A stretch of 64,000 nt of DNA, taken from contig JAFQHN010000015.1 in assembly GCA_017397935.1 (NCBI GenBank), forward strand, positions 2,746 through 66,745, read 5' to 3'. The notes beneath the pieces are model-generated. The model did no database searches. It was not told the DNA's origin and saw only the letters and a list, made by a program, of their open reading frames with translations. The stretch is from Bacillota bacterium. GTDB taxonomy: Bacteria; Bacillota; Dehalobacteriia; UBA4068; UBA4997. Shown here piece after piece: positions 3,942 to 61,580 of the stretch; position 1 is the first letter of the stretch; each line of letters opens with the position of its first letter. The position numbers and the translations under genes were made by a program.

Positions 3942-4178
3942 GCTTAAAACCTCATCACCACTATCCATAAAATTAAAACACATCTGGTTATACCGATAAA
4001 TAGTGATAACCATACATCAAATATTATACAGCATATTACTTGGTTTTGCAAATAAATTTAGTATTTTACCAAAAATTTATAAAAAATTATTCAAAAAATT
4101 GCTGTTGGCTATGTAACCAAACCCTGCCCTGCCAGATAAAATACTATATATTAAGTAAACGGCAAAAGGAGGATAAGC

Positions 4179-34141: not shown

Positions 34142-35089
34142 CTATAATTCCGGCAGCATCTGCACCAAAAGCTCCTTATCCTCCTGCTGACTGACGATGA
34201 TACGGGGCGGATTCGCCAATGCCCACTCCGGATCCACTGTCGCCAGCACCGCATATCGCTCATAGAATTTCGCCGCTTGCTCAAAAAGCACACTCTCTGC
34301 CCGCTGCCGAGCTTCCACCGCCTGCTCCATAGTATCAAAACTTCCCAACTCAAATGTCCGCTTCTGAAAAGTTATCTTTGCAACATACCGTCCGCGTATC
34401 AAATACACTCCACGCGTTCCGGTAGTGCTGTTCTTGGGCACCTTACGGCTGCGTATCCTTTCCAAAGAGGTTCCGTCTACATGCGTCAGGTAAGTATGCA
34501 AACTTTGTTCATGTTCCCTCTTGCGGCATCCACAGCTCTGCATAGCACTATACATCAGGTTATTATAACTGACATCTGCTTCATTCCCACAATCACAAAC
34601 GCAGTGCCATATTACTGATCCTCGCTCACCTCGCTTATCTGTTGCAAAAAGTGCCGTCAGCCGTCCAAACCTCTGCCCGGTAATATCCGTATGCGCATAG
34701 TGTCCACCATGCACCTTAGACGCACAATGAGTCCGTTTGCCGGTCAGCAGCAGCGTAGCCGGCACCTCATACTCCCCACCGCAGGCACACCGGCAACGCC
34801 ACCAGACCCCACCGTTTCTATCCTGTCGCTCTGCCCGGCTAAGCACTGTCAATTCTCCGAAAACCTGTCCGGTCAGTTCACGTGTATTTACCGCTGCAAC
34901 ATTATCCCGCCGCAGGCAGCCGCAGCTAAGTGAGCCTCCATACAGCAAACTACGCTCCAATACCGCACGCTCGGTACCACATTCACAGCGGCACCACCAT
35001 TTCCGTTCGCCCTTATCTGTCAAAATGCTGTCATCCAGCACTGTCCACCGTCCAAAGGTCTTACCTTTCAAATCATGCTTTGCCGCCAC
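34142..35089 (-). CDS. Protein with three tandem Cys-rich zinc-ribbon-like repeats and a C-terminal AP2-like DNA-binding domain (315 aa)
   Basis: Repeats at aa ~9-60, ~73-130, ~139-195 share G-x-x-FG-x-(L/W)T-(V/A)L…W-(W/H)-C-x-C-x-CG-x-E…(S/H)C(G/A)(C/S); C-terminus …TTGTRGVYLIRGRYVAKITFQKRTFELGSFDTMEQAVEARQRAE resembles AP2/HNH-associated DNA-binding domain. GTG start, weak RBS. Confidence 0.6.
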   Translation of the reverse strand: MAAKHDLKGKTFGRWTVLDDSILTDKGERKWWCRCECGTERAVLERSLLYGGSLSCGCLRRDNVAAVNTRELTGQVFGELTVLSRAERQDRNGGVWWRCRCACGGEYEVPATLLLTGKRTHCASKVHGGHYAHTDITGQRFGRLTALFATDKRGERGSVIWHCVCDCGNEADVSYNNLMYSAMQSCGCRKREHEQSLHTYLTHVDGTSLERIRSRKVPKNSTTGTRGVYLIRGRYVAKITFQKRTFELGSFDTMEQAVEARQRAESVLFEQAAKFYERYAVLATVDPEWALANPPRIIVSQQEDKELLVQMLPEL

Positions 35090-35195
35090 TAAACATCACC
35101 GCCTGTCGGTACGGCCTTATAATCTGCCAATCGTTTATTTCTGTACTGCAATCACAGTTATGATTTTGCTCTGCCGGGTGTGTCGCAGCTTTTTG

Positions 35196-35215
35196 TGACA
35201 TAATTCATATTATGT
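35196..35215. repeat. Inverted repeat, left arm (tgacataattcatattatgt); perfect reverse complement of 35459-35478
   Basis: Read directly; each arm is itself an imperfect palindrome (acataat-N-attatgt) with an asymmetric core that is inverted between the two copies. Confidence 0.9.
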
Positions 35216-35380
35216 TGTATTTTTATATCATAGCCCAAAACCCGACCGATTTTTGAACATACCAAAACACACCCTCCTAACAATTACTTAAAAAATTGTC
35301 CAGAGGGTGTTATTGTGCTGCCTGCCTATAAGAGTGCAGTCATAAGAGAACATAAAATATGCTTATGCTTATATTATAAG

Positions 35381-35409
35381 TTGATTTTTTTTGCTATGCT
35401 TGCTACAAT
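35381..35409 (+). promoter_or_regulatory. Sigma-70-like promoter inside the IR-bounded segment (TTGATT-17 bp-TACAAT), currently pointing away from the AP2-like gene and into the 3' end of the recombinase gene
   Basis: -35 TTGATT 35381-35386, 17-bp spacer containing T8 tract, -10 TACAAT 35404-35409. Confidence 0.5.
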
Positions 35410-35458
35410 AGAGATGGTTAAAACTCGATAAACATACATACTGATAGTGTGCACCTTG

Positions 35459-35478
35459 ACATAATATGAATTATGTCA
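35459..35478. repeat. Inverted repeat, right arm (acataatatgaattatgtca); 15 bp from recombinase stop codon
   Basis: Exact reverse complement of 35196-35215. Confidence 0.9.
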
Positions 35479-35493: not shown

Positions 35494-36333
35494 CTATATC
35501 ACCAATCCCAGGCGCTCAATTTTTCTGCGGTGCTCCACGCCGGTGGTCATAATATAAATGCGGGTGGTGTTAATGCTGCTGTGCCCCAAAATATCGGCCA
35601 GCTTGGCAATATCCTTTTCGATACCGTAGAAGGTGCGGGCAAACAGTTTGCGCAGGTTGTGCGGAAATACCTTGCCGGCCTCAACACCGGCTTGCTCGCA
35701 CAAAGCCTTCATCTGCGCCCAGATACGGCTTCTGTTCAAGGGTTTTCCGCTTCGGGTGAGAAATATCACGCCGGAGCGGATTTTTTCTTTTCGGGCATAA
35801 TCCAACAGCAGCTTTCTAAGTTTTCCCGGTATCAAGACGGTTCGGGTTTTGCCTTTACAGTTAACCGTCACCTCACCGCGGGCCACATTTTCCACCGTGA
35901 AACAGCGCAGTTCTGAAACACGAATGCCCGTACCGCAAATCGTTTTCATCACCAGTTGCAGCTGCGGTTTTCTTTTGGCTGCGTCCAGCAAGCGCATATA
36001 TTCCGCCTTGGTCAGCTCCTGTTCCTCAGCACAATATACCTGCTTCTGCTGTTTAATAGCTTTTACCCTGCAATCCGCCCAGCCGAGAAAGTCCAGCAGA
36101 CTATTCAAGCTGGCCAGCATGGAGTTGATTGAACGCACCGCATACTCTCTCATCTGCAAATACTTTTTGTAGGCCATCACTATCTCCTTCGTAACAACCT
36201 CATTACCAACATAAACTACAAAAGCACGGACATCACGGAGATATTTCTCCACAGTTGCCGTGCTTTTTTCTTCCCTTATTAAATATTGGCGATATGATAA
36301 AATCTGGTTTTGTGTGATTTTCCTTTCTTCCAT
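35494..36333 (-). CDS. Tyrosine-type site-specific recombinase (phage-integrase/XerC-D family, 279 aa, no N-terminal arm-binding domain)
   Basis: Catalytic-domain signature R…HxLR…(H/Y)…Y: …TGIRVSEL…, …HNLRKLFA…, …GHSSINTTRIY…. Confidence 0.85.
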   Translation of the reverse strand: MEERKITQNQILSYRQYLIREEKSTATVEKYLRDVRAFVVYVGNEVVTKEIVMAYKKYLQMREYAVRSINSMLASLNSLLDFLGWADCRVKAIKQQKQVYCAEEQELTKAEYMRLLDAAKRKPQLQLVMKTICGTGIRVSELRCFTVENVARGEVTVNCKGKTRTVLIPGKLRKLLLDYARKEKIRSGVIFLTRSGKPLNRSRIWAQMKALCEQAGVEAGKVFPHNLRKLFARTFYGIEKDIAKLADILGHSSINTTRIYIMTTGVEHRRKIERLGLVI

Positions 36334-36457
36334 TTTGGGTACCCTCCTGATGGTTATAAGCTGATTTGTGTTGTATCATTATTGTACCCATTTTCCAAAT
36401 AAAATTTGCTGCAAATCACCAAAAAGCAGTTTTTTAGCTGTTTGTGGCATAAAAAAA

Positions 36458-36493
36458 CACCCTGTTCTCATTACAAACAGGGTGCTTTTATTC
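36458..36493 (-). terminator. Terminator downstream of tRNA-Thr (GCACCCTGTT/AACAGGGTG hairpin plus T-run on minus strand; also hairpin plus U-rich on plus strand)
   Basis: aacaccctgttctcattacaaacagggtgc flanked by A7 and TTTTATT. Confidence 0.6.
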
Positions 36494-36569
36494 TGGAGCT
36501 GGAGACGTGACTTGAACACGCGACCTGCTGATTACGAATCAGCTGCTCTACCAACTGAGCTACACCAGC
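36494..36569 (-). tRNA. tRNA-Thr (anticodon CGU)
   Basis: Minus strand GCTGGTGTAGCTCAGTTGGTAGAGCAGCTGATTCGTAATCAGCAGGTCGCGTGTTCAAGTCACGTCTCCAGCTCCA; anticodon loop TTCGTAA; one U-U mismatch in acceptor stem. Confidence 0.8.
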
Positions 36570-51366: not shown

Positions 51367-52281
51367 ATGCCGATTAAAATTCCCAATGATTTACCTGCCC
51401 GTCCCGTGTTGGAGAATGAGCATATCTTTGTGATGACCGAAACCCGTGCGCTGTCGCAGGATATTCGTCCGCTGAAAATCGGTCTGGTTAATCTTATGCC
51501 CACCAAAATTGCCACCGAAACGCAAATTCTGCGCTGTTTGGCCAACACGCCCCTGCAAATTGAGATTGACCTTATCCACACCCAAAGTTATCACTCCAAA
51601 AACACCTCGGATGAACACCTTTCGGCCTTTTACCAAACCGTGGATGATGTTATGGATGTAAACTATGACGGCATCATCATCACCGGCGCACCGGTGGAGA
51701 ATATGGCTTTTGAAGAAGTGGAATATTGGCCGGAGCTTTGCCGCATTATGGAATGGACCAAAACCCACGCCCACAGCACCATGCACATCTGCTGGGCGGC
51801 GCAGGCAGGTCTTTATTATCATTACGGCGTGCCTAAGCGGCAGTTGGCCGGTAAATTAAGCGGCGTTTATCATCACTATATGTTAAACCCCAAGGCCCGT
51901 TTGTTCCGCGGCTTTGATGAGAATTACTGTGCGCCGCACTCCCGTCACACCGAGTCTGACCCTGAGGCGATTGCCAAGGTGCCGGAGCTTCGGGTGCTTT
52001 CCTGTTCGCCGCAGGCCGGTATTCACATCGTCAGCGACAATGACAGCAAGATGTTTTTTGTCAGCGGCCATTCGGAGTATGACCTGTATACCCTTAGTGA
52101 TGAATATTACCGTGATTTGAACAAAGGCCTGGATGTAAAAGTCCCCTTCAATTACTTCCCCGGGGATGACCCGCAGCAAAAGCCGGTAAATAATTGGCGG
52201 GCACACGGACAGCTGCTGTTTACCAACTGGCTTAACTATTATGTTTACCAGACCACGCCTTATGATTTGCAGCAGCTTTAA
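51367..52281 (+). CDS. metA: Homoserine O-acyltransferase MetA (MetAA-type)
   Basis: MPIKIPNDLPAR…LKIGLVNLMP… canonical MetA; catalytic Cys region present. Confidence 0.9.
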   Translation: MPIKIPNDLPARPVLENEHIFVMTETRALSQDIRPLKIGLVNLMPTKIATETQILRCLANTPLQIEIDLIHTQSYHSKNTSDEHLSAFYQTVDDVMDVNYDGIIITGAPVENMAFEEVEYWPELCRIMEWTKTHAHSTMHICWAAQAGLYYHYGVPKRQLAGKLSGVYHHYMLNPKARLFRGFDENYCAPHSRHTESDPEAIAKVPELRVLSCSPQAGIHIVSDNDSKMFFVSGHSEYDLYTLSDEYYRDLNKGLDVKVPFNYFPGDDPQQKPVNNWRAHGQLLFTNWLNYYVYQTTPYDLQQL

Positions 52282-52326
52282 GGCACTAAATTTAACACAG
52301 TAATATAAACCTAATATTAAACAGCA

Positions 52327-52368
52327 AAAGCTCTCACCCTGCCGCCGTGGCTGATGAGAGCTTTTTAC
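52327..52368. terminator. Bidirectional terminator between metA and the convergent minus-strand gene
   Basis: AGCTCTCA…TGAGAGCT 8-bp stem flanked by AAA and TTTT. Confidence 0.65.
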
Positions 52369-52369
52369 T

Positions 52370-52747
52370 TTAATTATTCTCGCCTTCGCCGGCGTTATAC
52401 ACGGCCTCGGCACCGAAAATTTCAATGCGGTTTACCATCTCGGGCGTCACTTTGTTGATTTCGGCAGCGCTGTCACTCATCGGCATCTGCGGTGCGGCTG
52501 CCGTAGTCTGCTGGTTAGTCTTGGGCTGTGTCCGGGCAATAATCGGCTGAGGCTGCTGCAATTTCTCCGGCTTATGCGGCCTGGTGGCATTGGATGTGGC
52601 GTTGCCGCCGTTTTGGGTGGGCGGATTAACCGTCATATCCGGCAAACCCGGCTTTAAGGGGCGGCCGTCCGGCAAATAATCAGGGTTGCCTGCGGCGGTG
52701 GCCTGCTCCAAATTACGCATCAAAGCGTTTTCTGCATTGGTATCCAT
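52370..52747 (-). CDS. Hypothetical low-complexity (Pro/Gln/Thr-rich) protein, 125 aa
   Basis: ORF with terminator; no domain recognised. Confidence 0.4.
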   Translation of the reverse strand: MDTNAENALMRNLEQATAAGNPDYLPDGRPLKPGLPDMTVNPPTQNGGNATSNATRPHKPEKLQQPQPIIARTQPKTNQQTTAAAPQMPMSDSAAEINKVTPEMVNRIEIFGAEAVYNAGEGENN

Positions 52748-52978
52748 AATTTATCCTCCAAATATCTGTTTATAACCGTTGCTTGGTTTAATTAACTGTT
52801 ACAAGCATAGTTTGGGCGCTTACACATAAGCTTATGCAGCCATTTTATACCGCCGCAAAATATAGATAATCCGTAGATAATCAATGGATAAAAAAGGATT
52901 TTGCCGTATTATGTAGAAATATATTTTTTCGGATAAAATAAAGTGAATAGTTGTGCAGAATTTTGTGAGGAGTTAAAA

Positions 52979-54121
52979 ATGAGATTAAAATGTAATGCAA
53001 AAAAACACTTATGCCGTAAAATTGCCGCAGCCCTGCTGCTGGTTTTGCCCTGCGCCCTGCCGGCTTATGCCGATGATATTCAAATCATGGTGAACGGTCA
53101 GCCCCTAAACAGCGATGTTGCCCCCATTATCCGTGACAGCCGTGTGCTGCTGCCAATACGCGCCTGTGCCGAAGCGCTTGACGCGGCCGTGAATTATGAG
53201 CCGGGTACCGGGCAAATCACCATTTTGCGTGGTGATGACACCGTGCTGCTGACGCTTAACTCCACCGAGGCTGTTATCAATGAGCAAACCAGACAGCTGG
53301 ATGTGGTACCCCAGGTTATCAACAGCCGTACTCTTGCGCCGCTGCGTTTTGTGGGCGAAGCGCTGAATTGTCAGGTTAATTGGCAGTCTGAAACGCAAAC
53401 CGTAACCATCCAGACCAACAGCCAAACCGAGGCCGAAAGTTATGAGCCGGTAACCGTGCCCGCTGTTGAAACCATTGTCAACCAGGCTTTACAGCAGCTT
53501 AACAGTATTCGCCTGCAAAAACAGCTGGACACCTTGATCAGCGCCGAAGAATTAAACCGTTTGGCCGCTGAACATAGCCGTGATATGGCCGAAAACGGCT
53601 TTTTAAGCAATATTTCACCCACTTTGGGCAGTATAGGGCACCGCGCTGCTGCTGAAAATCTACCTACCCCATCGGAAATTATCGCCAAAATTGATTACCG
53701 CCAGGCCAATGTTTATCAGGCTGTCACCGCCTGGTTCAGCAACGAGGAAACACGCAGGCTGCTGCTTGACCCCTCGGCCGGTTATATCGGACTAAGTGCT
53801 CATTATCTGCCTGACAGCACCGAGGTTTATCTGACAGCGGAGATTATGCCGTCTCACGCTTATTTTACCGATTTGCCGGATAATTCTACGGTACACATCG
53901 CCGGCATGGCCCTGCGCGGCCGCAGCCAGAATATCCCGGAAACTGTTACGGTTTATAAGGTTTCGGACATAAACCCGCAGATGTATAGCAGCAAGCAAAC
54001 TTATACCGCTGCCGGTGACGGCGTTTACTTCTTTACCAACATTGAGTTTGCCGAGCCGGGCACTTATGTGTTGCAAGTGGGCAGCTGTATGGTGCGTGTA
54101 AAATACATCCCGGGGGCATAA
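52979..54121 (+). CDS. Secreted protein with copper-amine-oxidase-like N-terminal (stalk) domain and CAP (SCP/PR-1, YkwD-like) domain
   Basis: Signal peptide after MRLK; …DSRVLLPIRACAEAL…LAPLRFVGEAL… stalk motif; CAP-like …GYIGLSAHY…. Confidence 0.65.
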   Translation: MRLKCNAKKHLCRKIAAALLLVLPCALPAYADDIQIMVNGQPLNSDVAPIIRDSRVLLPIRACAEALDAAVNYEPGTGQITILRGDDTVLLTLNSTEAVINEQTRQLDVVPQVINSRTLAPLRFVGEALNCQVNWQSETQTVTIQTNSQTEAESYEPVTVPAVETIVNQALQQLNSIRLQKQLDTLISAEELNRLAAEHSRDMAENGFLSNISPTLGSIGHRAAAENLPTPSEIIAKIDYRQANVYQAVTAWFSNEETRRLLLDPSAGYIGLSAHYLPDSTEVYLTAEIMPSHAYFTDLPDNSTVHIAGMALRGRSQNIPETVTVYKVSDINPQMYSSKQTYTAAGDGVYFFTNIEFAEPGTYVLQVGSCMVRVKYIPGA

Positions 54122-54151
54122 AATCATCTCCACCAAAGGAGGCAGCCAGCC

Positions 54152-54673
54152 TTGTTGACATCTTTTTGGAATTTTTTGGTCAGATTGGACACTTTCTTTT
54201 TTAATATCTTCAACCAGAGTATCAAATGCCGTTTTCTGGATATTCTTATGCAGCTTTTTACCCATCTGGCGGGGTTTTCCTCGGTGGTTGGCATCTGCCT
54301 GTTTTTAACGCTGTTTTTGCCCGACATCCCCGGCCCCAATGTGCTGGGTGCGGTATTTTTTGCCCAACTGGCGGCGCAGAGCATTAAGTTTATCATCCGC
54401 AGAATCCGTCCGCACATCAAGCTGCCCAATGTTAATATTTTTGCCAAGCTGATGCAGTATGACCCGTCCTTCCCCAGCGCCCATACGGCTACTATTACGG
54501 CACTTGGCGGCGTTATTGCCATTATGGAACCAAGCACCGAGGATGTGATGGCGGCGATTTGTACCTGCGTGGGAATTTCTCGCATTTATTTGGGCCAGCA
54601 TTATCCCAGCGATGTTTTGGTGGGTGCGGTTATCGGTATACTCTCGGCCAAGCTGTCCTGTATGATTTTCTAA
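54152..54673 (+). CDS. PAP2-family membrane phosphatase (undecaprenyl-diphosphatase/PA-phosphatase-like)
   Basis: KxxxxxxRP (KFIIRRIRP), PSAH (PSGH-like), SRIYLGQHYPSD motifs; TTG start after AAGGAGG RBS. Confidence 0.75.
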   Translation: MLTSFWNFLVRLDTFFFNIFNQSIKCRFLDILMQLFTHLAGFSSVVGICLFLTLFLPDIPGPNVLGAVFFAQLAAQSIKFIIRRIRPHIKLPNVNIFAKLMQYDPSFPSAHTATITALGGVIAIMEPSTEDVMAAICTCVGISRIYLGQHYPSDVLVGAVIGILSAKLSCMIF

Positions 54674-54753
54674 AAAAAACGGAAAATAACTTGCATTGGC
54701 CGGTTTAATGTGCTACAATTTTTATATTGTGGCAGATATGTCACTATATATGT

Positions 54754-54842
54754 GGAGCGGTATCGAAGTGGTCATAACGAGCCTGACTCGAAATCAGGTG
54801 TACCTCACGGTACCGTGGGTTCGAATCCCACCCGCTCCGCCA
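54754..54842 (+). tRNA. tRNA-Ser (anticodon CGA), long variable arm, encoded CCA
   Basis: GGAGCGG…anticodon loop CTCGAAA…long variable arm GTACCTCACGGTACCGT…GTTCGAATC…CCGCTCCGCCA. Confidence 0.85.
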
Positions 54843-54846
54843 TGGT

Positions 54847-54888
54847 AGCGTGATGATATTACTGTCAGTAGTGTCATCACGCTTTTTC
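54847..54888 (+). terminator. Terminator after tRNA-Ser (10-bp stem AGCGTGATGA/TCATCACGCT plus TTTTT)
   Basis: Read directly. Confidence 0.65.
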
Positions 54889-54991
54889 ATGCGGTTTTTC
54901 AGGATCAAAAAAAGGGTTACTCTGATGACTGACCAATGCCCTCTATAAGCTATATCAGAGATTTGATGCTAACTATATAAGGAGAAGGCTT

Positions 54992-55384
54992 ATGAAAAGA
55001 GTATGTGAATTTTTGAAAAATGCAGAGGTATATTATTTGGCAACGGTTGAGGGAGATCAGCCGAGAGTGCGTCCGTTAAGAACGGTAAACGAGTTCGATG
55101 GAAAACTCTACATACAGACCGGCAAGGTTAAGCCAACGAGCCGGCAGCTTGCAGCTAACCCCAAAGCTGAGATTTGTGCATTTAAGGACGGTGCGTGGAT
55201 TAGGATCGCTTGCGAGCTTATTGAAGATGACCGCTTTGAAGCAAAAAAATCCATGCTTGATGCGTATCCCAATCTTCGAAATATGTATGATGAAAACGAT
55301 GGTAATACGCAGGTGTTTTATATGAAAAATGCTGCCGCAACTATCAATTCCTTTGGCGGCGAACCTGTTGTTATTGAGTTTTAA
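54992..55384 (+). CDS. Pyridoxamine-5'-phosphate-oxidase-like FMN-binding split-barrel protein (130 aa)
   Basis: …YLATVEGDQPRVRPL… pattern typical of PNPOx-like family; AAGGAGAAGG RBS; low-GC codon usage. Confidence 0.55.
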   Translation: MKRVCEFLKNAEVYYLATVEGDQPRVRPLRTVNEFDGKLYIQTGKVKPTSRQLAANPKAEICAFKDGAWIRIACELIEDDRFEAKKSMLDAYPNLRNMYDENDGNTQVFYMKNAAATINSFGGEPVVIEF

Positions 55385-55467
55385 TGAATATACATAAAAA
55401 ATTAAAGCCGAATTTTCGTGGTTTTCAGAATTCTAAAAAAGAAAAATATAAAATTTATCCAAAATTA

Positions 55468-55496
55468 TTGACTTTTTTCTTAATAAGTGATATAAC
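55468..55496 (+). promoter_or_regulatory. Promoter for T-box leader (TTGACT-17 bp-TATAAC)
   Basis: Read directly upstream of structured leader. Confidence 0.45.
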
Positions 55497-55519
55497 ATAC
55501 AACATAAATTGAATATCAT

Positions 55520-55801
55520 CTGACTAAATGCGGTGAGCAGAACTAAGTAAGCTTGGAAAGAGCTTGAAGAGAGTTGCCGGATGGTGCAAGGCAATGGCGA
55601 TGACCATGACGAATTCCTTCTGTTAGCAGTGCGCTGAACAAGAGAAATCTTAAGTAGGAGGCAACGGGAGTTCCCGTTACAGAACTAGGGTATGTTAGTA
55701 CCTGATAAGGTTGCTGTCGTGAGGTAGTGACAAACTGAGGTGGTACCACGGAAATGTTTTTTCGTCCTCTGTATCTTGTTTAAGATGCAGAGGATTTTTT
55801 T
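55520..55801 (+). promoter_or_regulatory. T-box-like riboswitch (tRNA-sensing leader) ending in intrinsic terminator
   Basis: AGAGAG stem-I-like element at 55566-55573; T-box-like box AAACUGAGGUGGUACCACGG at 55731-55750 (consensus AAUUAGGGUGGNACCGCGG); terminator CCUCUG…CAGAGG plus U7 at 55765-55801 overlapping the box. Confidence 0.6.
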
Positions 55802-55954
55802 ATCCGCAAATAAAGCGAAAGTATTAAATGTTAGGCTTATACATAGGTATGCTGTTCAAAAAAGAATTCCCGAAAAATTAACATGACTGCGTAAGCACTT
55901 AATTATCAGAGATTTATGCTCTGCGGAGCATGAATAAATAAATTATTAAAGGAG

Positions 55955-56893
55955 TTGTACACTATGAAAAAAATGTTATCCATCGTACTTGCACTTACCC
56001 TTTGCGTAAGCACATGTCTCTCGCTCTCAGGCTGCGGGGGCAAAAATTACAGCTATCAGGTAGGCATTTGTCAGCTTATGGTCCATGATTCACTGGATCA
56101 GGCAACACAAGGTTTTCAGGATGGTTTGAAAGCCGCTCTTGAAAAAGAAGGCAAAACAGTAGAGTTTGATACACAGGTTGCAGGCGAAGCAAACCTTTGC
56201 ACAACTGTTATCAACACATTCACAGCAAAGAATGTTGACCTTATTATGGCTAACGCAACCCCTGCACTTTTGGCTGCTGCTAATGCAACAACAAAGATTC
56301 CTGTGCTCGGTACTTCTGTAACAGACTATGCTGATACATTCTCCGGTAATATTCCTGAAAATGTAACAGGTACATCTGATGCGGTTCCTTTCGATGAACA
56401 GGCAAAAATGATGATTGAAAGCCTCAACCTTGTTGAAGGCGATAAAGTTGGCGTTATTTACTGCACAAACGAATCCAACTCTCTTATCCAGTATAACGCT
56501 GTAAAAGAACTCTTTGAAGCAGAAGGTATCGTAGTAACAGCATACACATTCTCTGAAACAACAGAGCTTCAAGCACTCGTTACAAAGGCTGCATCTGAAT
56601 CAAAGGCAATCTATGTTCCTTCTGATAACACAGTTGCACAGAACGATACAGTAGTTGGAACAATCTGCACAGATAAGAATGTTCCTGTATTCACAAGTTA
56701 TGGCGGTGGAATCTGCTATGCAAGCCTTGCAATCGACTACTATCAGCTTGGCCACAGAACAGGTGAACAGGCTGCCGAAATCCTTCTTGGCAACAAGAAA
56801 CCTTCTGACATTAAGGTAGAAACCCTTACACCTTCTGTTATTTACAACGAAGAACTTTGCGCGCAACTTGGAATCGAGGTTCCGCAGAACTAA
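55955..56893 (+). CDS. ABC transporter substrate-binding lipoprotein, PF04392 (ABC_sub_bind) family (TrpX-like, putative aromatic amino acid/tryptophan uptake)
   Basis: Lipoprotein signal (…LSGCGG), family resemblance; T-box leader upstream. Confidence 0.7.
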   Translation: MYTMKKMLSIVLALTLCVSTCLSLSGCGGKNYSYQVGICQLMVHDSLDQATQGFQDGLKAALEKEGKTVEFDTQVAGEANLCTTVINTFTAKNVDLIMANATPALLAAANATTKIPVLGTSVTDYADTFSGNIPENVTGTSDAVPFDEQAKMMIESLNLVEGDKVGVIYCTNESNSLIQYNAVKELFEAEGIVVTAYTFSETTELQALVTKAASESKAIYVPSDNTVAQNDTVVGTICTDKNVPVFTSYGGGICYASLAIDYYQLGHRTGEQAAEILLGNKKPSDIKVETLTPSVIYNEELCAQLGIEVPQN

Positions 56894-56917
56894 TCAAAAA
56901 ATACGAGGTACTGCAAA

Positions 56918-57838
56918 ATGGCTTTTTTGAATGTTTTACCCGGAGCAATCGCGGAAGGGCTGATATGGGGACTTATGGCAATCGGTGTCTATATCTCCTA
57001 TAAGATTTTAGATATTGCAGACCTATCGGTAGATGGCTCTATTTGCACAGGTGCGTGTGTATGCGTTGTGATGCTTGCCGCAGGAAATCCGATTTGGCTT
57101 TGTATGCTCGCGTCGGTTATTGCCGGTGCTTTGGCAGGTGTATTGACGGGACTGTTTCATACTGCACTTGGAATACCGGCTATTCTTGCAGGTATCCTGA
57201 CTCAGCTTATTCTCTATTCGGTAAATCTGTCTATACTTGGCGGTAAATCCTTAATCGCTATTGATATTCGTTCAACGAACCTTATTATGCACATGAGCGA
57301 TAACCCAATGGCGATTGTATCGGCAGGATTGATTATTGTGGCAACTATTATTGGGCTTTGGTTGTTCTTCTATACAGAGACAGGATTGACCATTAAATCG
57401 ACAGGTGATAATCCGCATATGAGCCGCGCACAAGGTGTCAATGTTGATCTTAACAAGGTTATCGGTCTTGCAATATCAAACGGTATTGTAGCTTTGGCAG
57501 GCTCTCTTTTAGCTCAGTACAAAGGTTCTGCCAATATCAATGACGGCAGAGGTGCTATCGTAATCGGACTTGCAGCTATATTTATCGGTCTTTCGGTATC
57601 ACTTAAAATCAAACCGAATTTTGTTTGCAGTTTGATAGGCGTAATCGGCGGCGGTATTGTGTATTACATAATCTATAACTTTGTAATTCTTTTGGGACTT
57701 AAAACCGATTATCTTAAAATGCTGTCGGCAATTATAGTTGCTTTATTCATTGCTGTGCCATATCTAAAAACAAAATATTTCACAAAGCAAAAGCCTATAC
57801 CGATAGTGCAAAATAATGGAGGTGATGAAGATGCTTAA
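56918..57838 (+). CDS. ABC transporter permease (TrpY-like)
   Basis: Polytopic membrane protein with branched-chain-type permease fold; operon position. Confidence 0.75.
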   Translation: MAFLNVLPGAIAEGLIWGLMAIGVYISYKILDIADLSVDGSICTGACVCVVMLAAGNPIWLCMLASVIAGALAGVLTGLFHTALGIPAILAGILTQLILYSVNLSILGGKSLIAIDIRSTNLIMHMSDNPMAIVSAGLIIVATIIGLWLFFYTETGLTIKSTGDNPHMSRAQGVNVDLNKVIGLAISNGIVALAGSLLAQYKGSANINDGRGAIVIGLAAIFIGLSVSLKIKPNFVCSLIGVIGGGIVYYIIYNFVILLGLKTDYLKMLSAIIVALFIAVPYLKTKYFTKQKPIPIVQNNGGDEDA

Positions 57839-58628
57839 AATTAAAAACCTCCAAAAAACATTTAATCCCGGAACAGTTAATGCAAAAACTGCTTTGGCAG
57901 GTCTTAATTTAACTCTTAACAACGGAGATTTTGTTACCGTTATAGGCGGTAACGGTGCAGGTAAATCCACTATGCTCAATGCTATATCAGGTGTGTGGAA
58001 GCCTGACTACGGCACAATCGAAATTGACGGTGTGGATGTAACCAATATGCCCGAATACAAAAGAGCAAAGTTTTTGGGCAGAGTTTTTCAGGACCCGATG
58101 ATGGGAACTGCACCTGATATGGAAATTGCCGAGAATTTGGGAATTGCCAGAAGACGTGGCACAAAGCGTAGACTTCGCTGGGGTATCAGAAAGGCGGAGC
58201 GGCAGGAATATAAGGAACTGCTTGCTACATTAGAGCTTGGTCTGGAAAACAGACTTTCAAGCAAGGTCGGTCTTTTGTCCGGCGGACAAAGACAGGCGGT
58301 AACGCTTCTTATGGCAACGCTTAACCGTCCGAAGCTTCTTCTCCTGGATGAACACACTGCTGCACTTGATCCGAAAACTGCGGCAAAGGTGCTTGAAATA
58401 ACTAATAAAATAGTTACGGAAAATAACCTGACAACACTTATGATTACTCATAATATGCATGATGCAATCGAATACGGCAACCGCCTCATTATGATGCACG
58501 AAGGCAAAGTGATTGTTGACGTCTCCGGCGAAGAAAAGAAAAAACTGACAATTTCTCAGCTTCTTGAATTGTTTGAAAAAGCAAGCGGAAGCGAATTCGC
58601 AAACGATAAGGTTATGTTATCTAAATAA
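57831..58628 (+). CDS. ABC transporter ATP-binding protein (TrpZ-like)
   Basis: Walker A GGNGAGKST, signature LSGGQRQ, Walker B LLLDEHTAALD; start MLKIKN after GGAGGTG RBS. Confidence 0.85.
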   Translation: MLKIKNLQKTFNPGTVNAKTALAGLNLTLNNGDFVTVIGGNGAGKSTMLNAISGVWKPDYGTIEIDGVDVTNMPEYKRAKFLGRVFQDPMMGTAPDMEIAENLGIARRRGTKRRLRWGIRKAERQEYKELLATLELGLENRLSSKVGLLSGGQRQAVTLLMATLNRPKLLLLDEHTAALDPKTAAKVLEITNKIVTENNLTTLMITHNMHDAIEYGNRLIMMHEGKVIVDVSGEEKKKLTISQLLELFEKASGSEFANDKVMLSK

Positions 58629-58636
58629 GAATTATT

Positions 58637-58677
58637 GTTAAGTGGCTGCCAAATGACAGCCACTTAACTTGTTTTAT
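58637..58677 (+). terminator. Strong terminator after ABC operon (12-bp perfect stem GTTAAGTGGCTG/CAGCCACTTAAC plus TTGTTTTAT)
   Basis: Read directly. Confidence 0.7.
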
Positions 58678-58907
58678 AAAAATACATTCCCAAATTCCTG
58701 CATAAAATATGATATACAGTAAACCAGACAAGAATTATCAAAAGGAAAATTAAAAATTTGGGGAGAAAAATTGTATAACAAAATAGACCGGCAAGCAGAA
58801 AAATTTTTTGTCGCCCGGTGAAAAAGATTAAAAGTTAAATTTAATTATCCGAATTTAATTGTTCTTCATTTAGCAAAATATGAAATATGGAAGCTGAGGT
58901 GTGAATA

Positions 58908-59966
58908 ATGCCATTACAAATAGTAAGAAATGACATCACAAAAATGAAAGTAGACGCCATCGTTAACGCTGCCAACACATCGCTTCTCGGCGGCGGCGGT
59001 GTTGACGGCTGTATCCACCGTGCCGCCGGCCCGTCTCTTCTTACCGAGTGCAAAATGCTTGGCGGCTGTGAAACCGGCAGTGCCAAAATTACCGGTGCAG
59101 GAAATCTGCCTTGTAAACATGTTATTCATGCCGTGGGGCCCCGGTGGCTGGGAGGCGGTCACGGAGAGCGAGAACAGCTCATTTCCTGTTATCGGACGAG
59201 TCTGGCGCTGGCCGGGGATAAGGAATGTGAGACAGTTGCTTTTCCGCTGTTTTCTTCCGGTATCTACGGCTACCCCAAGGATAAAGCGTTGAGAATAGCC
59301 ATAGATACGATAAGTGAGTTTTTGCTTGATAACGATATGACCGTCTATATTGTTATCTTTGATAAAACAGCATACCAAATCAGCGAAAAACTGTTTGCAG
59401 ATATTACCGAATACATTGATGACAACTATGTGAATGAACATACTGGTACCTGCCCTAACCGTCTGTGCAGAAATGACAGAATGTACGAAGAAGACATTAT
59501 TTACAGGGCAAACATCGAAGTAGCTATTGATGATGATACCGATGACTTGATTCCGGTTTGTGCATCGGCAGCAAAAGCGGAATACAAATCAAATAAGGAC
59601 TCATTGGAATATATCCTTAAACAGATTGATGAGAGTTTTTCTGAAATGCTGCTGCGCAAGATTGACGAGTGCGGTATTACAGATGCTGAATGCTACAAGA
59701 AAGCAAACATTGACCGCAAGCTGTTCTCCAAAATCCGCAGTGATAAGCTGTATAAGCCGAGCAAACCTACTGTTATTGCCTTTGCTATCGCCCTTAAACT
59801 GTCTTTGGAGGAAACGAAGGATATGCTGATGAAGGCCGGTTTTGCACTCTCCCACTCCAATAAATTCGACATAATTATTGAGTATTTTATCGAAAACGAA
59901 AATTACAATGTCTTTGAAATAAATGAGGCCCTGTTTGCCTTTGACCAAAGTTTGCTGGGAGCATAA
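58908..59966 (+). CDS. Macro-domain (MacroD/YmdB-like ADP-ribose-binding/hydrolase) protein fused to a C-terminal extension containing an XRE-like helix-turn-helix (352 aa)
   Basis: N-terminal ~175 aa: …[27 protein letters not shown]…VIHAVGPRW…[13 protein letters not shown]…; C-terminal region …[19 protein letters not shown]…[28 protein letters not shown] resembles Cro/C1-type HTH. Confidence 0.7.
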
Positions 59967-60010
59967 AACTGTTGATATTCTCACAATAAAAGGATTGATT
60001 AAGCCAACCG

Positions 60011-60034
60011 GATTTGTCGCCTGCCATGCGACCA
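60011..60034 (+). repeat. Direct repeat copy 1 (ATTTGTCGCCTGCCATGCGACCA), 80 bp upstream of the HD-domain gene
   Basis: Shares 19/23 positions, including 14-bp perfect core CTGCCATGCGACCA, with 61438-61460. Confidence 0.6.
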
Positions 60035-60113
60035 AAACAAATATCTCTGACTGTATAATGATAGTGTCAGTTAAATCGGGCAGATGTCAGCAAGCTATCA
60101 GGAGGGATAAATT

Positions 60114-61433
60114 ATGAATCAACAATTTACTGCTGAGGATATTCTTAATGCGAAACAAATTTATTTCTATAACAACGAAACACTTTACATCATAGACCAT
60201 GATGATGAGGCATACGGATACAGCAAAGGATGTTCCGGCTGGTATCATAAAGAAAACTTCTGGGATTATTTTGAGTCTGAGCTGATGATGACCTACTTTA
60301 CCCACATCACCAAAGAAGAAGCCGTTCAGCTTTATCTTGGCTGGGCAGATGATTACAACGCTGATAATTGCCGGCTTGACAAAGCAATTATTTTTGCTGT
60401 GGAACATCATGCCGGCCAGTTCCGTAAAAGTACGGTACTCCCCTACATCACCCACCCTATTGAAACAATGCAGATTCTTTATTCCATGAGAGCAGACATC
60501 AACCTGCTGATAGCCGGTGTGCTTCATGACACGATTGAGGACACCGAAGCAACAGAGCAAGACATTCGGGAACTGTTTGGAGATGATGTTGCAGGGCTTG
60601 TTACTGCCCACAGCGAGGACAAAAGCAAAACATGGCAGGAACGCAAAACCCACGCCATTGAAGAACTGGCGAAGGCTGACAAGCGTTTGAAGATGCTGAT
60701 TATGGCTGATAAAGTATCTAACCTTAGAAACATGGTATCCGATTACTCTCTGGTTGGTGATGAGCTATGGAACAGATTTAACGCACCGGTCAACAAGCAA
60801 TCCCGGTATTACAGCGACATTCAGGATGCGCTCTGTGATATGCAAAAATATCCGGAATGTGCTGCCGTGTATTGGGAAATGGTTGGTCTGTATAAAGACT
60901 TGTTCGTAAGATACTATCTCGATAAAAGAACAAATACGCTGTACCGGTTCTGCTTAGGTATTGCTATCTATGCTCTGCAAAAAGGAACTCCCCAATGGAC
61001 GGAGTACCAAGAAAAGCATATTCCTGAAAATGCAGAACCCATAGAGCGCTTAGCAGCTGAACACATGGAAGATGATTGGAAATCTGCTTTTCAGCATCAA
61101 CATGAAATGGATATTTCCAATGCGTCATATTCTGTATATGGCTCAATAAGACGCTGCATTGACTTTCGCATTTCCGATGGAAAGCTGACAGTCGCTTGTG
61201 AGGACTTCGGGCCTGAATGTCAAAATATGACCGGCAATAATATGTACGAGTTCTTTTATCAGTTGGATGAGGACAATACCCTTCGCTTGTTAACCGGACT
61301 CCGCATCGAATACGGACTTGAAACCGATTTGATTGATTTGCTTAAAGAGGCTTTTGGCTCGGATGACGGAACAACCCTGTTCACAAATTTCTGCAAGAAA
61401 AATCGCATTAAATACAAGTTTTTCTCAATGTAA
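60114..61433 (+). CDS. 439-aa protein with central RelA/SpoT-type HD domain (small alarmone hydrolase-like) flanked by uncharacterised N- and C-terminal regions
   Basis: HD motif set …AVEHHAGQFRKS…PYITHPIE…AGVLHDTIEDT… as in SpoT/Mesh1 hydrolase domains; no synthetase domain; ~220-aa C-terminal part unassignable. Confidence 0.65.
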   Translation: MNQQFTAEDILNAKQIYFYNNETLYIIDHDDEAYGYSKGCSGWYHKENFWDYFESELMMTYFTHITKEEAVQLYLGWADDYNADNCRLDKAIIFAVEHHAGQFRKSTVLPYITHPIETMQILYSMRADINLLIAGVLHDTIEDTEATEQDIRELFGDDVAGLVTAHSEDKSKTWQERKTHAIEELAKADKRLKMLIMADKVSNLRNMVSDYSLVGDELWNRFNAPVNKQSRYYSDIQDALCDMQKYPECAAVYWEMVGLYKDLFVRYYLDKRTNTLYRFCLGIAIYALQKGTPQWTEYQEKHIPENAEPIERLAAEHMEDDWKSAFQHQHEMDISNASYSVYGSIRRCIDFRISDGKLTVACEDFGPECQNMTGNNMYEFFYQLDEDNTLRLLTGLRIEYGLETDLIDLLKEAFGSDDGTTLFTNFCKKNRIKYKFFSM

Positions 61434-61437
61434 TATA

Positions 61438-61460
61438 AATTTAGTGTCTGCCATGCGACC
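61438..61460 (+). repeat. Direct repeat copy 2 (ATTTAGTGTCTGCCATGCGACCA), 5 bp after the HD-domain gene stop
   Basis: See copy 1. Confidence 0.6.
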
Positions 61461-61543
61461 ATGCAAAGTGCAATTTAAGATACAATATGACTGTAAGGTA
61501 AAAACCGAGCAGTCATATTTCTATTTGCGTTGGTATATAAAAA

Positions 61544-61580
61544 GGAGCAAGGCATATTTCAGTCTTGCTCCTATTATAAT
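61544..61580 (+). terminator. Terminator after HD-domain gene (GGAGCAAG…CTTGCTCC plus U-rich tail)
   Basis: 8-bp perfect stem, 12-nt loop. Confidence 0.5.

What the first reader, a model, noticed from the sequence alone, without database searches (positions are those of the whole stretch)
35196..35478. Candidate recombinase-controlled invertible promoter switch: perfect 20-bp inverted repeats around a 243-bp promoter-bearing segment
Two perfect 20-bp inverted repeats (35196-35215 tgacataattcatattatgt; 35459-35478 acataatatgaattatgtca) bound a 243-bp AT-rich segment. Each arm is an imperfect palindrome (acataat / attatgt half-sites) around an asymmetric core (ttcat vs atgaa). That is the layout expected for tyrosine-recombinase core sites in inverted orientation, which gives inversion rather than excision. 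The right arm sits 15 bp from the stop codon of a small tyrosine recombinase (35494-36333) that lacks an arm-binding domain, much as FimB/FimE sit beside fimS or RecV-type invertases beside their switches. Inside the segment is a near-consensus promoter (TTGATT-17-TACAAT, 35381-35409). In the present orientation it fires away from the downstream gene 34142-35089 and antisense into the recombinase 3' end. After inversion it would fire toward the AP2-like/Cys-repeat gene. I therefore read this as an OFF-state phase-variation switch. No feature of ordinary gene structure explains perfect 20-bp inverted repeats at this spot.
Basis: partly seen in the sequence, partly recalled or inferred. Interest (0 to 1): 0.85.

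Follow-up and report, generated by a model that had tools for sequence, protein, structure and literature searches.

The report
Recombinase-driven invertible promoter switch, OFF
A 283-bp DNA segment carrying a promoter can be flipped by the small recombinase encoded next to it, turning a neighbouring DNA-binding regulator gene on or off; it belongs to a very large, barely described family of such switches in gut Clostridia.

Summary
Two perfect 20-nt inverted repeats (35196-35215 and 35459-35478) bound a 243-nt AT-rich segment. The segment begins 15 nt after the stop of a 279-aa Xer-like tyrosine recombinase.

In about 65 homologous loci from other Clostridia, the same site (ACATAAT-NNNN-ATTATGT) follows the recombinase stop. 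A second, inverted copy lies 220-430 nt further on. The four central bases differ between loci (17 variants), but the distal copy carries their reverse complement in 63 of 66 loci.

In eight orthologous pairs, and in this locus's sister species, the flanks are colinear and the segment is reversed exactly at the sites. Contigs of the window's own species end at the graph nodes expected if both orientations coexist.

The segment has a conserved anatomy. An outward-firing promoter sits about 48 nt from one site, and a palindromic terminator-like hairpin sits near the other. Here the promoter points into the recombinase gene, so the switch is OFF for the cargo. The cargo is a Cys-repeat/AP2-like probable regulator.

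The sites resemble dif. This is a known kind of system (an inverton). The family may already be catalogued as hCom2 "group 139", which I could not verify.

The parts
35494..36333 (-). Xer-like tyrosine recombinase (279 aa), the presumed invertase of the adjacent switch
   Evidence: Pfam Phage_integrase 2.2e-25 plus Phage_int_SAM_1. The best NCBIfam matches are XerA/XerD/XerC, all below their cut-offs. The closest solved structures are XerC-like 4a8e, XerA 5hxy and XerD 1a0p. The catalytic residues R138, K160/162, H225, R228, H251 and Y260 align with those of XerD. More than 8000 homologues exist, and in the 80 loci retrieved a switch follows the stop codon in nearly every locus with enough downstream DNA.
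35459..35478 (.). Recombinase-proximal core site (right inverted repeat); conserved core 35459-35476, ACATAAT-ATGA-ATTATGT on the + strand
   Evidence: Perfect inverted repeat. Equivalent sites lie 3-38 nt after the recombinase stop in nearly all homologous loci. The layout is dif-like: CATAA, 6 nt, TTATG.
35196..35215 (.). Cargo-proximal core site (left inverted repeat); conserved core 35198-35215, ACATAAT-TCAT-ATTATGT
   Evidence: Perfect inverted repeat. In 63 of 66 loci the distal site carries the reverse complement of the proximal site's central tetranucleotide, and 17 different tetranucleotides are seen.
35216..35458 (.). Invertible segment (243 nt, 32% G+C), here in state A (OFF for the cargo)
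   Evidence: In eight orthologous locus pairs, and in the sister-species loci L093/L094, this segment is reversed while both flanks stay colinear. Contigs of the same species break at the IR-defined graph nodes. It holds no credible ORF and no Rfam family.
35381..35409 (+). Sigma-70-type promoter TTGATT-17-TACAAT (with TG extension), firing outward through the proximal site into the 3' end of the recombinase gene. After inversion it would fire through the distal site toward the cargo.
   Evidence: Found by the promoter scan. The motif cTTGATTTTT-17-TATAAT is conserved, with its -10 hexamer ending 30-56 nt (mode 48) from one site in 48 of 63 loci. The same test at the other end of the segment scores 2 of 63.
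35250..35324 (-). Conserved palindromic stem-loop (GCAgCACAAnnACACCCTC ... GAGGGTGTGnTTTTGnnn), read here as a bidirectional intrinsic-terminator-like insulator
   Evidence: It is the most conserved block of the segment in 63 loci, found by nhmmer. RNA fold is -26.7 kcal/mol with z = -3.2. The core helix is paired in 90.6% of cells, and 5 pairs show compensatory changes. Terminator function is inferred.
35090..35195 (-). Fixed leader between the switch and the cargo start codon
   Evidence: No promoter-like site on the minus strand in this stretch. It is colinear with the sister-species locus.
34142..35089 (-). Cargo gene: a 315-aa protein with three CxCxCG...SCGC zinc-ribbon-like repeats and a C-terminal AP2-like domain; probable DNA-binding regulator
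   Evidence: No Pfam or NCBIfam hit. PHROG 374 ('HNH endonuclease' annotation) scores 3e-53 over the repeats. At least 2658 homologues share invariant Cys patterns, and NCBI names one of them 'transcriptional regulator'. The AlphaFold model has mean pLDDT 80, and its C-terminal domain matches the Arabidopsis TEM1 AP2 domain locally (rmsd 0.9 A over 43 columns, probability 1.00). Homologues again sit directly behind a recombinase and switch in L035, L039 and L095, and inside pilus or adhesin operons in L096-L098.

Best explanation
This is a site-specific DNA inversion switch (an inverton). The recombinase encoded at 35494-36333 is Xer-like. It is proposed to bind as dimers to the two dif-like core sites (ACATAA|TNNNNA|TTATGT), which lie in inverted orientation. 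It would synapse them, exchange strands at the edges of the asymmetric 6-bp centre, and so invert the 243-bp segment.

The segment carries one outward-firing sigma-70-type promoter near one end and a palindromic, terminator-like hairpin near the other. In the orientation sequenced here the promoter fires into the 3' end of the recombinase gene, antisense to it. The hairpin then lies between the recombinase gene and the cargo, so the cargo is OFF.

After inversion the promoter fires through the left site and a leader of about 170 nt into gene 34142-35089. That gene encodes a Cys-repeat/AP2-like probable DNA-binding regulator. The hairpin would then insulate the promoter from recombinase read-through.

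Shown here: the repeats; conservation of site, promoter and hairpin; covariation of the site centres; both orientations at orthologous loci; and an intact catalytic set.

Inferred: that this recombinase is the catalyst, the cleavage positions, promoter and terminator activity, and the cargo's function.
For: The repeats are perfect and unique in the window.

In the 80 loci retrieved with the recombinase, from Lachnospiraceae, Oscillospiraceae, Holdemania and Peptococcaceae, a site ACATAAT-NNNN-ATTATGT lies 3-38 nt after the stop. An inverted partner lies 220-430 nt further on. Seventeen different central tetranucleotides occur. The partner carries the reverse complement in 63 of 66 loci, which is what strand exchange between inverted sites requires.

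In eight orthologous pairs the flanks are colinear and the segment is reversed, with breakpoints at the sites. One example is L060 versus L067, at 99.3% identity over 298 nt. The orthologous sister locus L094 has a recombinase of about 90% aa identity (its cluster representative), a cargo of 87% aa identity and pyrE of 97% nt identity. Its segment is reversed relative to the window.

Among 63 loci, 42 are in the window's state and 21 in the opposite state.

Contigs of the window's own species stop at the nodes predicted for coexisting orientations. L004, L091 and L092 end at the inner end of the proximal repeat. L007 starts at the repeat plus 10 nt, and L090 ends at the repeat plus 35 nt.

Promoter and hairpin are conserved in position and polarity. 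All catalytic residues are present.

Cargo genes in other loci are typical phase-variable functions: signal peptidase and pilus operons, adhesins, polysaccharide synthesis, and TetR regulators.
Against: There is no read-level evidence of both orientations at this exact locus. All full-length assemblies of this species (the window, L001, L002, L005, L006, L088, L089) show the same OFF orientation.

The inverted-junction pattern was not found in JGI metagenome contigs, but neither was the non-inverted junction, so that test says nothing.

Promoter and terminator matches are consensus matches only. The hairpin is conserved mostly by sequence and shows only modest covariation, so it could instead be a protein-binding palindrome.

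The cargo's function is unknown.
Confidence: 0.85

Rival explanations
1. The segment does invert, but its main output is control of the recombinase itself. In this reading the cargo gene is expressed from another promoter, or by read-through, whatever the orientation. Control of the recombinase would come from antisense transcription or transcriptional interference in state A.
For: In the sequenced state the promoter points straight into the recombinase's 3' end, and no + strand terminator is predicted beyond it. Roughly a fifth of the switch-bearing related loci yielded no co-directional ORF of at least 100 aa starting within 700 nt downstream.
Against: About 50 loci have a co-directional gene starting shortly after the distal site. 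The cargo classes are typical phase-variable surface functions. No minus-strand promoter is found in the fixed leader 35090-35195. The two readings are not exclusive, because antisense feedback could add to cargo control.
Confidence: 0.08
2. The recombinase is the integrase of a small island inserted at tRNA-Thr, and the repeats are remnants of attachment sites or the ends of a mobile element (MITE/IS).
For: tRNA-Thr (36494-36569) lies 160 nt upstream of the recombinase gene with its 3' end facing it. The recombinase is 80-90% identical across distant families, which implies horizontal spread.
Against: No repeat of the tRNA 3' end occurs anywhere in the window. Both sites lie on the same side of the recombinase gene, 243 nt apart and inverted, which is not the direct-repeat att layout. 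The homologous modules sit in many unrelated contexts without a tRNA. Matches on plasmids and phages are few and distant. No target-site duplication flanks the repeats.
Confidence: 0.03
3. The sites are a chromosomal dif locus, or an element exploiting Xer, used for chromosome dimer resolution rather than for gene control.
For: The core matches dif: E. coli GGTGCGCATAA|TGTATA|TTATGTTAAAT against ACATAA|TTCATA|TTATGT here. The recombinase's best family matches are XerA/XerD/XerC.
Against: There are two sites in inverted orientation. Several modules occur in one genome, for example L056 and L078, or L063 and L084. GC skew is uniformly negative from 16 to 52 kb and does not change sign at 35 kb. 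All Xer equivalog scores fall far below their cut-offs. A conserved promoter lies between the sites.
Confidence: 0.02
4. The repeats are a static regulatory palindrome, or a chance feature, and never recombine.
For: All complete assemblies of this species show a single orientation.
Against: Zero matches are expected by chance. The site centres covary in 63 of 66 loci. Orthologous loci carry reversed segments with breakpoints at the sites. Assemblies break at the predicted graph nodes.
Confidence: 0.02

Closest known systems
hCom2 'inverton group 139' with 'invertase group 35' (Microbiome 2025, PMC11892184)
   Same: That group holds 33 read-verified invertons, 32 of them from Clostridia, spread over 17 strains. 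Nearly all have a tyrosine recombinase next to them. Repeats of 13-25 nt and interiors of 206-228 nt match the dimensions seen here.
   Different: The repeat motif and the invertase sequences are not in the text that was held, so identity with this family could not be checked. That paper is a catalogue and does not describe the site anatomy, the dif likeness, the promoter-plus-hairpin layout or the cargo found here.
E. coli fimS with FimB/FimE
   Same: Tyrosine recombinases are encoded beside a roughly 300-bp invertible promoter segment. Orientation of the element can feed back on recombinase expression (established knowledge of the fim system).
   Different: FimB/FimE are about 200 aa and lack the N-terminal core-binding domain. 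The NCBIfam tyrosine-type DNA invertase models score 23.9 and 17.8 bits against cut-offs of 221 and 222. The fimS repeats are 9 bp, unrelated in sequence, and need IHF and Lrp.
Clostridioides difficile RecV switches (cwpV, flgB, cmrRST and others)
   Same: It is a Firmicutes tyrosine recombinase that inverts short promoter or leader segments. Sites are two binding motifs around a 6-bp spacer, and a switch-specific 'spacer code' prevents cross-recombination (PMC12282940). The varied but matched centres seen here fit the same logic.
   Different: RecV lacks an N-terminal DNA-binding domain and acts in trans on six distant switches. Here each switch has its own two-domain recombinase encoded 15 nt away, and the sites are dif-like.
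Xer/dif dimer-resolution systems (XerCD, XerA, XerH, XerS)
   Same: The recombinase's best sequence and structure matches are Xer proteins. The site shares the CATAA-6 nt-TTATG core with dif, and its palindromic arms resemble single-recombinase dif sites.
   Different: Sites come in inverted pairs, several modules can occur per genome, the locus is not at a skew switch, and the scores are below the equivalog cut-offs. The output is promoter inversion, not dimer resolution.
Mycoplasma agalactiae Xer1 and the vpma locus
   Same: A Xer-like tyrosine recombinase encoded beside the locus drives inversions for phase or antigenic variation (PMC2268961, listed).
   Different: Xer1 shuffles a single promoter among several vpma genes through multiple sites. 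It is not a two-site promoter cassette with a terminator, and I did not compare sequences.
Bacteroides invertible promoters with adjacent tyrosine invertases (Tsr family)
   Same: An invertible promoter is followed by surface-structure operons whose first gene is often a regulator, and a recombinase is encoded nearby (PMC11892184).
   Different: The phylum, promoter type (Bacteroides sigma-ABfr consensus), repeat motifs and recombinase clade all differ.

Membership tests
Tyrosine recombinase superfamily (Pfam PF00589) | Catalytic-domain match above the Pfam gathering score | tested here: met
   89.8 bits against a cut-off of 27.1.
Tyrosine recombinase superfamily (Pfam PF00589) | Catalytic set R-K-H-R-H/W-Y | tested here: met
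   R138, K160/162, H225, R228, H251 and Y260 align with XerD R148, K172, H244, R247, H270 and Y279 (XerD numbering from my own knowledge, not printed by the tool). The alignment is and the positions.
Inverton / invertible promoter switch | Inverted repeats bounding a short segment that contains a promoter | tested here: met
   The promoter is conserved in 48 of 63 loci, against 2 of 63 at the control end.
Inverton / invertible promoter switch | Both orientations exist in nature, with breakpoints at the repeats | tested here: met
   Shown at family level in eight orthologous pairs, and in the sister-species orthologue of this locus. Among 63 loci the split is 42 to 21.
Inverton / invertible promoter switch | Both orientations coexist within one population of this organism | tested here: inconclusive
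   Five contigs from independent assemblies end at the graph nodes predicted for coexisting orientations. No contig or read with an inverted junction was recovered.
Inverton / invertible promoter switch | A site-specific recombinase that catalyses the inversion | not testable with these tools
   An intact recombinase is encoded 15 nt away and its linkage to the switch is conserved in about 65 loci. Catalysis needs an experiment.
XerC / XerD / XerA (NCBIfam equivalogs) | Score above the curated equivalog cut-off | tested here: not met
   XerA 137.9 against 220; XerD 106 against 329.6; XerC 99.6 against 335.15.
XerC / XerD / XerA (NCBIfam equivalogs) | dif-type target: 11-nt arms around a 6-nt centre with the CATAA / TTATG inner arms | tested here: met
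   ACATAA|TTCATA|TTATGT compared with the dif table of PMC2731167. The consensus over 66 loci is.
XerC / XerD / XerA (NCBIfam equivalogs) | A single site at the replication terminus | tested here: not met
   The sites are a pair of inverted copies. GC skew does not change sign at 35 kb. Several modules occur in one genome.
FimB/FimE-type DNA invertases | Match to NF007370 / NF007371 above the cut-off; about 200 aa, catalytic domain only | tested here: not met
   23.9 and 17.8 bits against cut-offs of 221 and 222. The protein is 279 aa and has a SAM-like N-terminal domain.
RecV-type (C. difficile) | No N-terminal DNA-binding domain; one recombinase serves several distant switches | tested here: not met
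   An N-terminal SAM-like domain is present. The site occurs only at this switch within the 64-kb window, but the rest of the genome was not available. The RecV properties are taken from PMC12282940.
hCom2 inverton group 139 / invertase group 35 | Shared repeat motif and shared recombinase cluster | not testable with these tools
   Neither the motif nor the sequences are in the held text or supplements. Taxon range, dimensions and recombinase adjacency agree.
AP2-domain DNA-binding proteins (cargo) | Pfam PF00847 match or an AP2 fold | tested here: inconclusive
   No Pfam hit at E <= 0.01. There is a local Foldseek match to the TEM1 AP2 domain (rmsd 0.9 A, 43 columns, probability 1.00, but E = 0.19). 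A neighbouring paralogue in L098 has a faint PF00847 hit.

The most novel reading that the evidence does not exclude
The module of recombinase gene, two dif-like sites, outward promoter and bidirectional terminator is about 1.2 kb. It may be a self-contained, horizontally spreading 'plug-in' phase-variation cassette derived from a Xer/dif system. It has been placed in front of hundreds of different operons across gut Clostridia. Its varied spacer could keep paralogous cassettes in one genome from recombining with each other. Its OFF-state promoter could feed back on its own recombinase by antisense transcription. At this locus it would put a zinc-ribbon/AP2-like regulator, and through it a distant regulon linked to pili or adhesins, under stochastic ON/OFF control.
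Probability: 0.4. Interest if true: 0.65.

Novelty: new member of a known kind. Interest (0 to 1): 0.5.

Why it matters
Phase variation by promoter inversion is well studied in Bacteroides, E. coli and C. difficile, but hardly at all in the Lachnospiraceae and Oscillospiraceae that dominate gut communities.

This locus is a clean example of one conserved switch design. Its parts can be read directly from sequence: a dif-like site with a free 4-nt code, a fixed promoter position and an insulating hairpin.

That has three practical consequences. ON/OFF state can be called from any assembly or read set. The design explains a recurrent cause of contig breaks in these genomes. It also offers a compact one-gene inversion module with naturally varied spacers.

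The cargo here, an uncharacterised Cys-repeat/AP2-like regulator family that recurs behind such switches and inside pilus and adhesin operons, is a testable candidate for a phase-variable regulon in gut commensals.

Tried and rejected
1. I scanned JGI metagenome contigs for the inverted-state junction, and then for the orientation-neutral cargo-side junction. Both scans found nothing. The species is simply absent from that collection, so there is no information either way.

2. I tried to confirm that hCom2 inverton group 139 is this family. The repeat motif and sequences are not in the held main text or supplements. Jiang et al. 2019 (PMC6543533) is not held. Literature searches for the site sequence, and for Clostridia invertons linked to pili, found no specific description.

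3. tRNA-island hypothesis: no repeat of the tRNA-Thr 3' end occurs in the window.

4. Chromosomal dif hypothesis: GC skew does not change sign at the locus.

5. Known RNA family in the segment: none was found. No credible ORF was found either.

6. Plasmid or phage carriage of the module: only six plasmid or chromid records and one phage record matched, all at 54% identity or less.

7. A whole-model Foldseek search of the cargo was uninformative because the model is multi-domain (pTM 0.34). Only the local AP2 hit is usable.

8. RNAalifold supported only the 7-bp core of the hairpin. The outer A-tract/T-tract pairing is 74% paired with little covariation. The terminator reading therefore rests on form, not on covariation.

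9. My first site regex used a 5-nt spacer and found nothing. The spacer is 4 nt.
Full report
**Observation.** The window holds two perfectly complementary 20-nt arms, 35196-35215 (TGACATAATTCATATTATGT) and 35459-35478, separated by 243 nt. The 20-mer occurs nowhere else in the window, even with three mismatches, and never in 100 shuffles. The segment is 32% G+C against 49% for the window.

The right arm ends 15 nt before the stop codon of a 279-aa ORF (35494-36333, minus strand). That ORF matches Pfam Phage_integrase and the N-terminal SAM-like domain, and nothing else. A TTGATT-17-TACAAT promoter with a TG extension lies at 35381-35409 on the + strand.

The next gene on the minus strand, 34142-35089, encodes a 315-aa protein with no Pfam or NCBIfam match. 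The neighbourhood reads, in minus-strand gene order, ilvD-ilvN-ilvB-tRNA-Thr-recombinase-[segment]-315-aa gene, followed by a convergent pyrE and then ruvC, ruvA and ruvB.

**The recombinase.** Its best NCBIfam matches are XerA, XerD and XerC, all far below their equivalog cut-offs. The FimB/FimE-type invertase models barely register. The closest solved structures are a XerC-like protein (4a8e), XerA (5hxy) and XerD (1a0p). The alignment to XerD shows the full catalytic set: R138, K160/162, H225, R228, H251 and Y260.

More than 8000 homologues pass E <= 1e-20. Many are 80-90% identical yet come from MAGs assigned to different families, and a striking number sit on contigs of only 1-2 kb.

**Comparative anatomy.** A scan of one genome per species returned 80 loci at 66-86% identity. 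They came from Lachnospiraceae, Oscillospiraceae (many Faecousia), Holdemania, Peptococcaceae and others.

In almost every locus with downstream DNA, a site ACATAAT-NNNN-ATTATGT begins 3-38 nt after the recombinase stop. A second copy lies 220-430 nt further on, in inverted orientation. The four central bases take 17 different values across loci. In 63 of 66 loci the distal site carries exactly the reverse complement of the proximal one. Two of the three exceptions are truncated contigs, and the third (L055) differs by one base.

This covariation is what a tyrosine recombinase needs, because strand exchange requires identical crossover regions. Inverted polarity of those regions gives inversion rather than excision.

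**Direct evidence of inversion in nature.** I compared the segments between the sites all-against-all. Close relatives often match over the full length in reverse orientation.

For eight orthologous pairs I checked the flanks. Both the recombinase side and the cargo side are colinear, while the stretch bounded by the sites is reversed. Examples are L060/L067 (99.3% over 298 nt), L082/L085, L034/L036, L008/L012, L011/L012, L064/L071, L055/L064 and L053/L065.

The locus under study also has a syntenic orthologue in a sister taxon, L093/L094. Its recombinase cluster is about 90% aa identical, its cargo 87% aa, and its pyrE 97% nt. Window 35196-35477 aligns to it in reverse while all flanks align forward.

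**Evidence within the window's own species.** Six full-length assemblies show the window's orientation. Five shorter contigs from independent samples, however, stop exactly where a de Bruijn graph must branch if both orientations coexist.
- L004, L091 and L092 end at the last base of the proximal repeat.
- L007 (Logan, k = 31) begins with 10 interior nt plus the 20-nt repeat, which is k-1.
- L090 ends 35 nt into the interior, so repeat plus 35 equals 55, the usual largest SPAdes k.

These observations come; the k values are from my own knowledge of those assemblers. Likewise, 14 of the 80 genome loci end within 160 nt after the stop codon. This evidence is indirect, and no contig with an inverted junction was recovered. 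Both JGI metagenome scans were empty because the species is not in that collection.

**Inside the segment.** Two elements are conserved in sequence, position and polarity.

The first is a promoter, cTTGATTTTT-17-TATAAT. Its -10 hexamer ends 30-56 nt (mode 48) from one site, and it fires outward through that site. It is found in 48 of 63 loci, against 2 of 63 when the same test is applied to the other end.

The second is a 75-nt palindromic stem-loop, GCAgCACAAAnnACACCCTC-(AT-rich, with its own inner stem)-GAGGGTGTGcTTTTGTGCGCCCAAA. It lies about 45 nt from the other site. In the window it is 35250-35324. As RNA it folds at -26.7 kcal/mol with z = -3.2. Its core helix is paired in 90.6% of cells across 44 sequences, and five pairs show compensatory change. 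An A-tract before the stem and a T-tract after it is the form of a bidirectional intrinsic terminator. That function is inferred, and a protein-binding palindrome is not excluded.

Using the polarity of these elements, 42 loci are in the window's state, with the promoter pointing toward the recombinase. The other 21 are in the opposite state.

**Reading the state.** In the window the promoter points right, into the 3' end of the recombinase gene. The hairpin lies between the recombinase gene and the cargo, and no minus-strand promoter is found in the fixed leader 35090-35195. The cargo is therefore predicted to be OFF.

Inversion would place the promoter about 42 nt from the left site and about 170 nt upstream of the GTG start at 35089. 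The hairpin would then sit upstream of the promoter as an insulator. Antisense transcription into the recombinase gene in the OFF state may bias switching. That idea is speculative, but it would fit the 2:1 excess of this state among assemblies.

**The sites are dif-like.** A literature search for the half-sites led to the dif compilation (PMC2731167). E. coli dif is GGTGCGCATAA|TGTATA|TTATGTTAAAT. The site here reads ACATAA|TTCATA|TTATGT, with the same inner arms and a 6-nt centre whose outer two positions are fixed as T...A.

Together with the Xer-like protein, this suggests a Xer/dif system recruited for inversion. It is not the chromosomal dif, for four reasons. The sites come in inverted pairs. 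Several modules occur per genome (L056 and L078; L063 and L084; L012 and L075). GC skew does not change sign at 35 kb. The Xer equivalog cut-offs are not met.

**Cargo.** Across loci, the first co-directional gene after the switch is most often one of the following:
- a signal peptidase S26, which typically heads a pilus operon (10 loci);
- a TetR regulator (9 loci);
- an S24 peptidase (3 loci);
- large surface proteins (Flg_new, DUF7601, cohesin/dockerin, collagen);
- polysaccharide synthesis genes.

The window's cargo belongs to a family of at least 2658 proteins of about 315-330 aa. It has three invariant CxCxCG...SCGC modules and a C-terminal domain with a local structural match to a plant AP2 domain. 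PHROGs files the shared modules under 'HNH endonuclease', but I saw no nuclease motif. NCBI names one member 'transcriptional regulator'.

Homologues sit directly behind a recombinase and switch in L035, L039 and L095; in L095 the promoter faces the cargo. Others lie inside an adhesin operon (L096, L097) and at the end of a sortase-pilin operon (L098). The most likely role is a DNA-binding regulator tied to surface structures, which is an inference.

**Rivals.** A tRNA-integrated island is not supported. There is no repeat of the tRNA 3' end, both sites lie on one side of the gene, and homologous modules sit in unrelated contexts. A MITE/IS reading, a static palindrome and chance are each contradicted by the covariation and by the reversed orthologues. 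A reading in which the switch mainly regulates its own recombinase cannot be excluded, and it may coexist with cargo control.

**Relation to known systems.** The system works like fimS with FimB/FimE, like the C. difficile RecV switches and like Bacteroides invertible promoters. It is not a member of the FimB/FimE family. It also differs from RecV, which lacks an N-terminal domain and serves six distant switches with a 'spacer code' (PMC12282940).

A survey of a defined gut community (PMC11892184) reports 'inverton group 139'. That group has 33 read-verified invertons, 32 from Clostridia, in 17 strains. Nearly all have an adjacent tyrosine recombinase, 'invertase group 35', and their dimensions resemble this one. 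This is probably the same family, but the motif is not in the held text, so I could not test it.

A more distant homologue on the Pusillibacter faecalis replicon pMM59_01 is 54% identical. It shows the same layout with unrelated 26-nt repeats, an internal hairpin and an S-layer-homology protein downstream. The design therefore extends beyond the ACATAAT site family.

**Verdict.** The locus is an OFF-state invertible promoter switch with its own Xer-like recombinase. It is a new member of a known kind, and it belongs to a very large, conserved family in gut Clostridia that has been little characterised. My confidence that the segment inverts and gates the downstream gene is about 0.85. The missing piece is read-level or experimental proof at this locus.

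Noticed in passing
L012 (sites at +21, +304, +354, +397 after the recombinase stop); L041 (+19, +59, +331, +371); L053, L061, L065-L067, L081, L082, L085, L008, L011, L058: Many related switches have three or four core sites, with extra copies 40-53 nt from the proximal or distal site and in the same polarity. These could allow nested or alternative inversions, or small deletions, so those loci would have more than two states.
   Followed up: partly
L010 4858-4875; L016 4856-4873: Two loci have a recombinase followed by a single core site and then directly a gene, with no invertible segment. In L010 the lone site carries the distal-type centre (ATGA). They may be remnants of segment loss, or an ancestral state.
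   Followed up: partly
L055 (sites at +14 TCAC and +276 GAGA): This is the only complete switch whose two centres are not exact reverse complements; they differ by one base. It may be a naturally locked switch. Its orthologues L064 and L071 have matched centres.
   Followed up: no
(for example L011 Holdemania 85%, L016 Peptococcaceae 81%, L008 Lachnospiraceae 86%): The recombinase is 80-90% identical across bacterial families and classes. That is far more than expected for vertical descent and implies recent horizontal spread of the module. Yet it is rare on plasmids and phages, and the vehicle is unknown.
   Followed up: partly
L056 and L078 (SVLT01, centres TCGT and CAGC); L012 and L075 (JBGVLR01, TCAT and CCGC); L063 and L084 (JAZRMH01, both CTGC): Single genomes carry two or more modules. 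These usually, but not always, have different central tetranucleotides. That fits a spacer code separating the modules, with one counter-example.
   Followed up: no
L034 versus L036: The flanks are 99.5% and 97.6% identical, but the reversed segment is only 91.8% identical. In this pair the invertible segment has diverged faster than its surroundings, or has been exchanged.
   Followed up: no
L093 1527-1955 and 2210-2539, against L094 1517-2518: In one sample of the sister taxon the cargo gene is called as two ORFs (142 and 109 aa). In the other sample it is intact (333 aa). This could be a frameshift or pseudogene of the cargo in a population whose switch is in the ON orientation.
   Followed up: no
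L096 3001-3972 and 3997-4968; L098 3001-3945 and 3987-4820: The Cys-repeat/AP2-like protein family occurs as tandem paralogues inside adhesin and sortase-pilin operons. In L096 it lies near a DUF4379 zinc-ribbon protein.
   Followed up: no
L099 3839-3864 / 4133-4158 (Pusillibacter faecalis pMM59_01): A recombinase 54% identical to the window's has the same layout with unrelated 26-nt repeats (TCCTATAGACAAAAACAACATTTCGT). It also has a second proximal copy, an internal hairpin (4037-4087) and an S-layer-homology protein downstream.
   Followed up: partly
window 52000-62000; tRNA-Ser 54754-54842: G+C drops to 0.41-0.46 and GC skew turns positive just where a tRNA-Ser gene lies. This may be an island or prophage boundary unrelated to the switch.
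   Followed up: no
window 36453-36489: A strong hairpin (AAAAACACCCTGTT / AACAGGGTGCTTTT) lies between tRNA-Thr and the recombinase gene. It probably terminates the tRNA transcript, so the recombinase would need its own promoter in 36334-36450.
   Followed up: no
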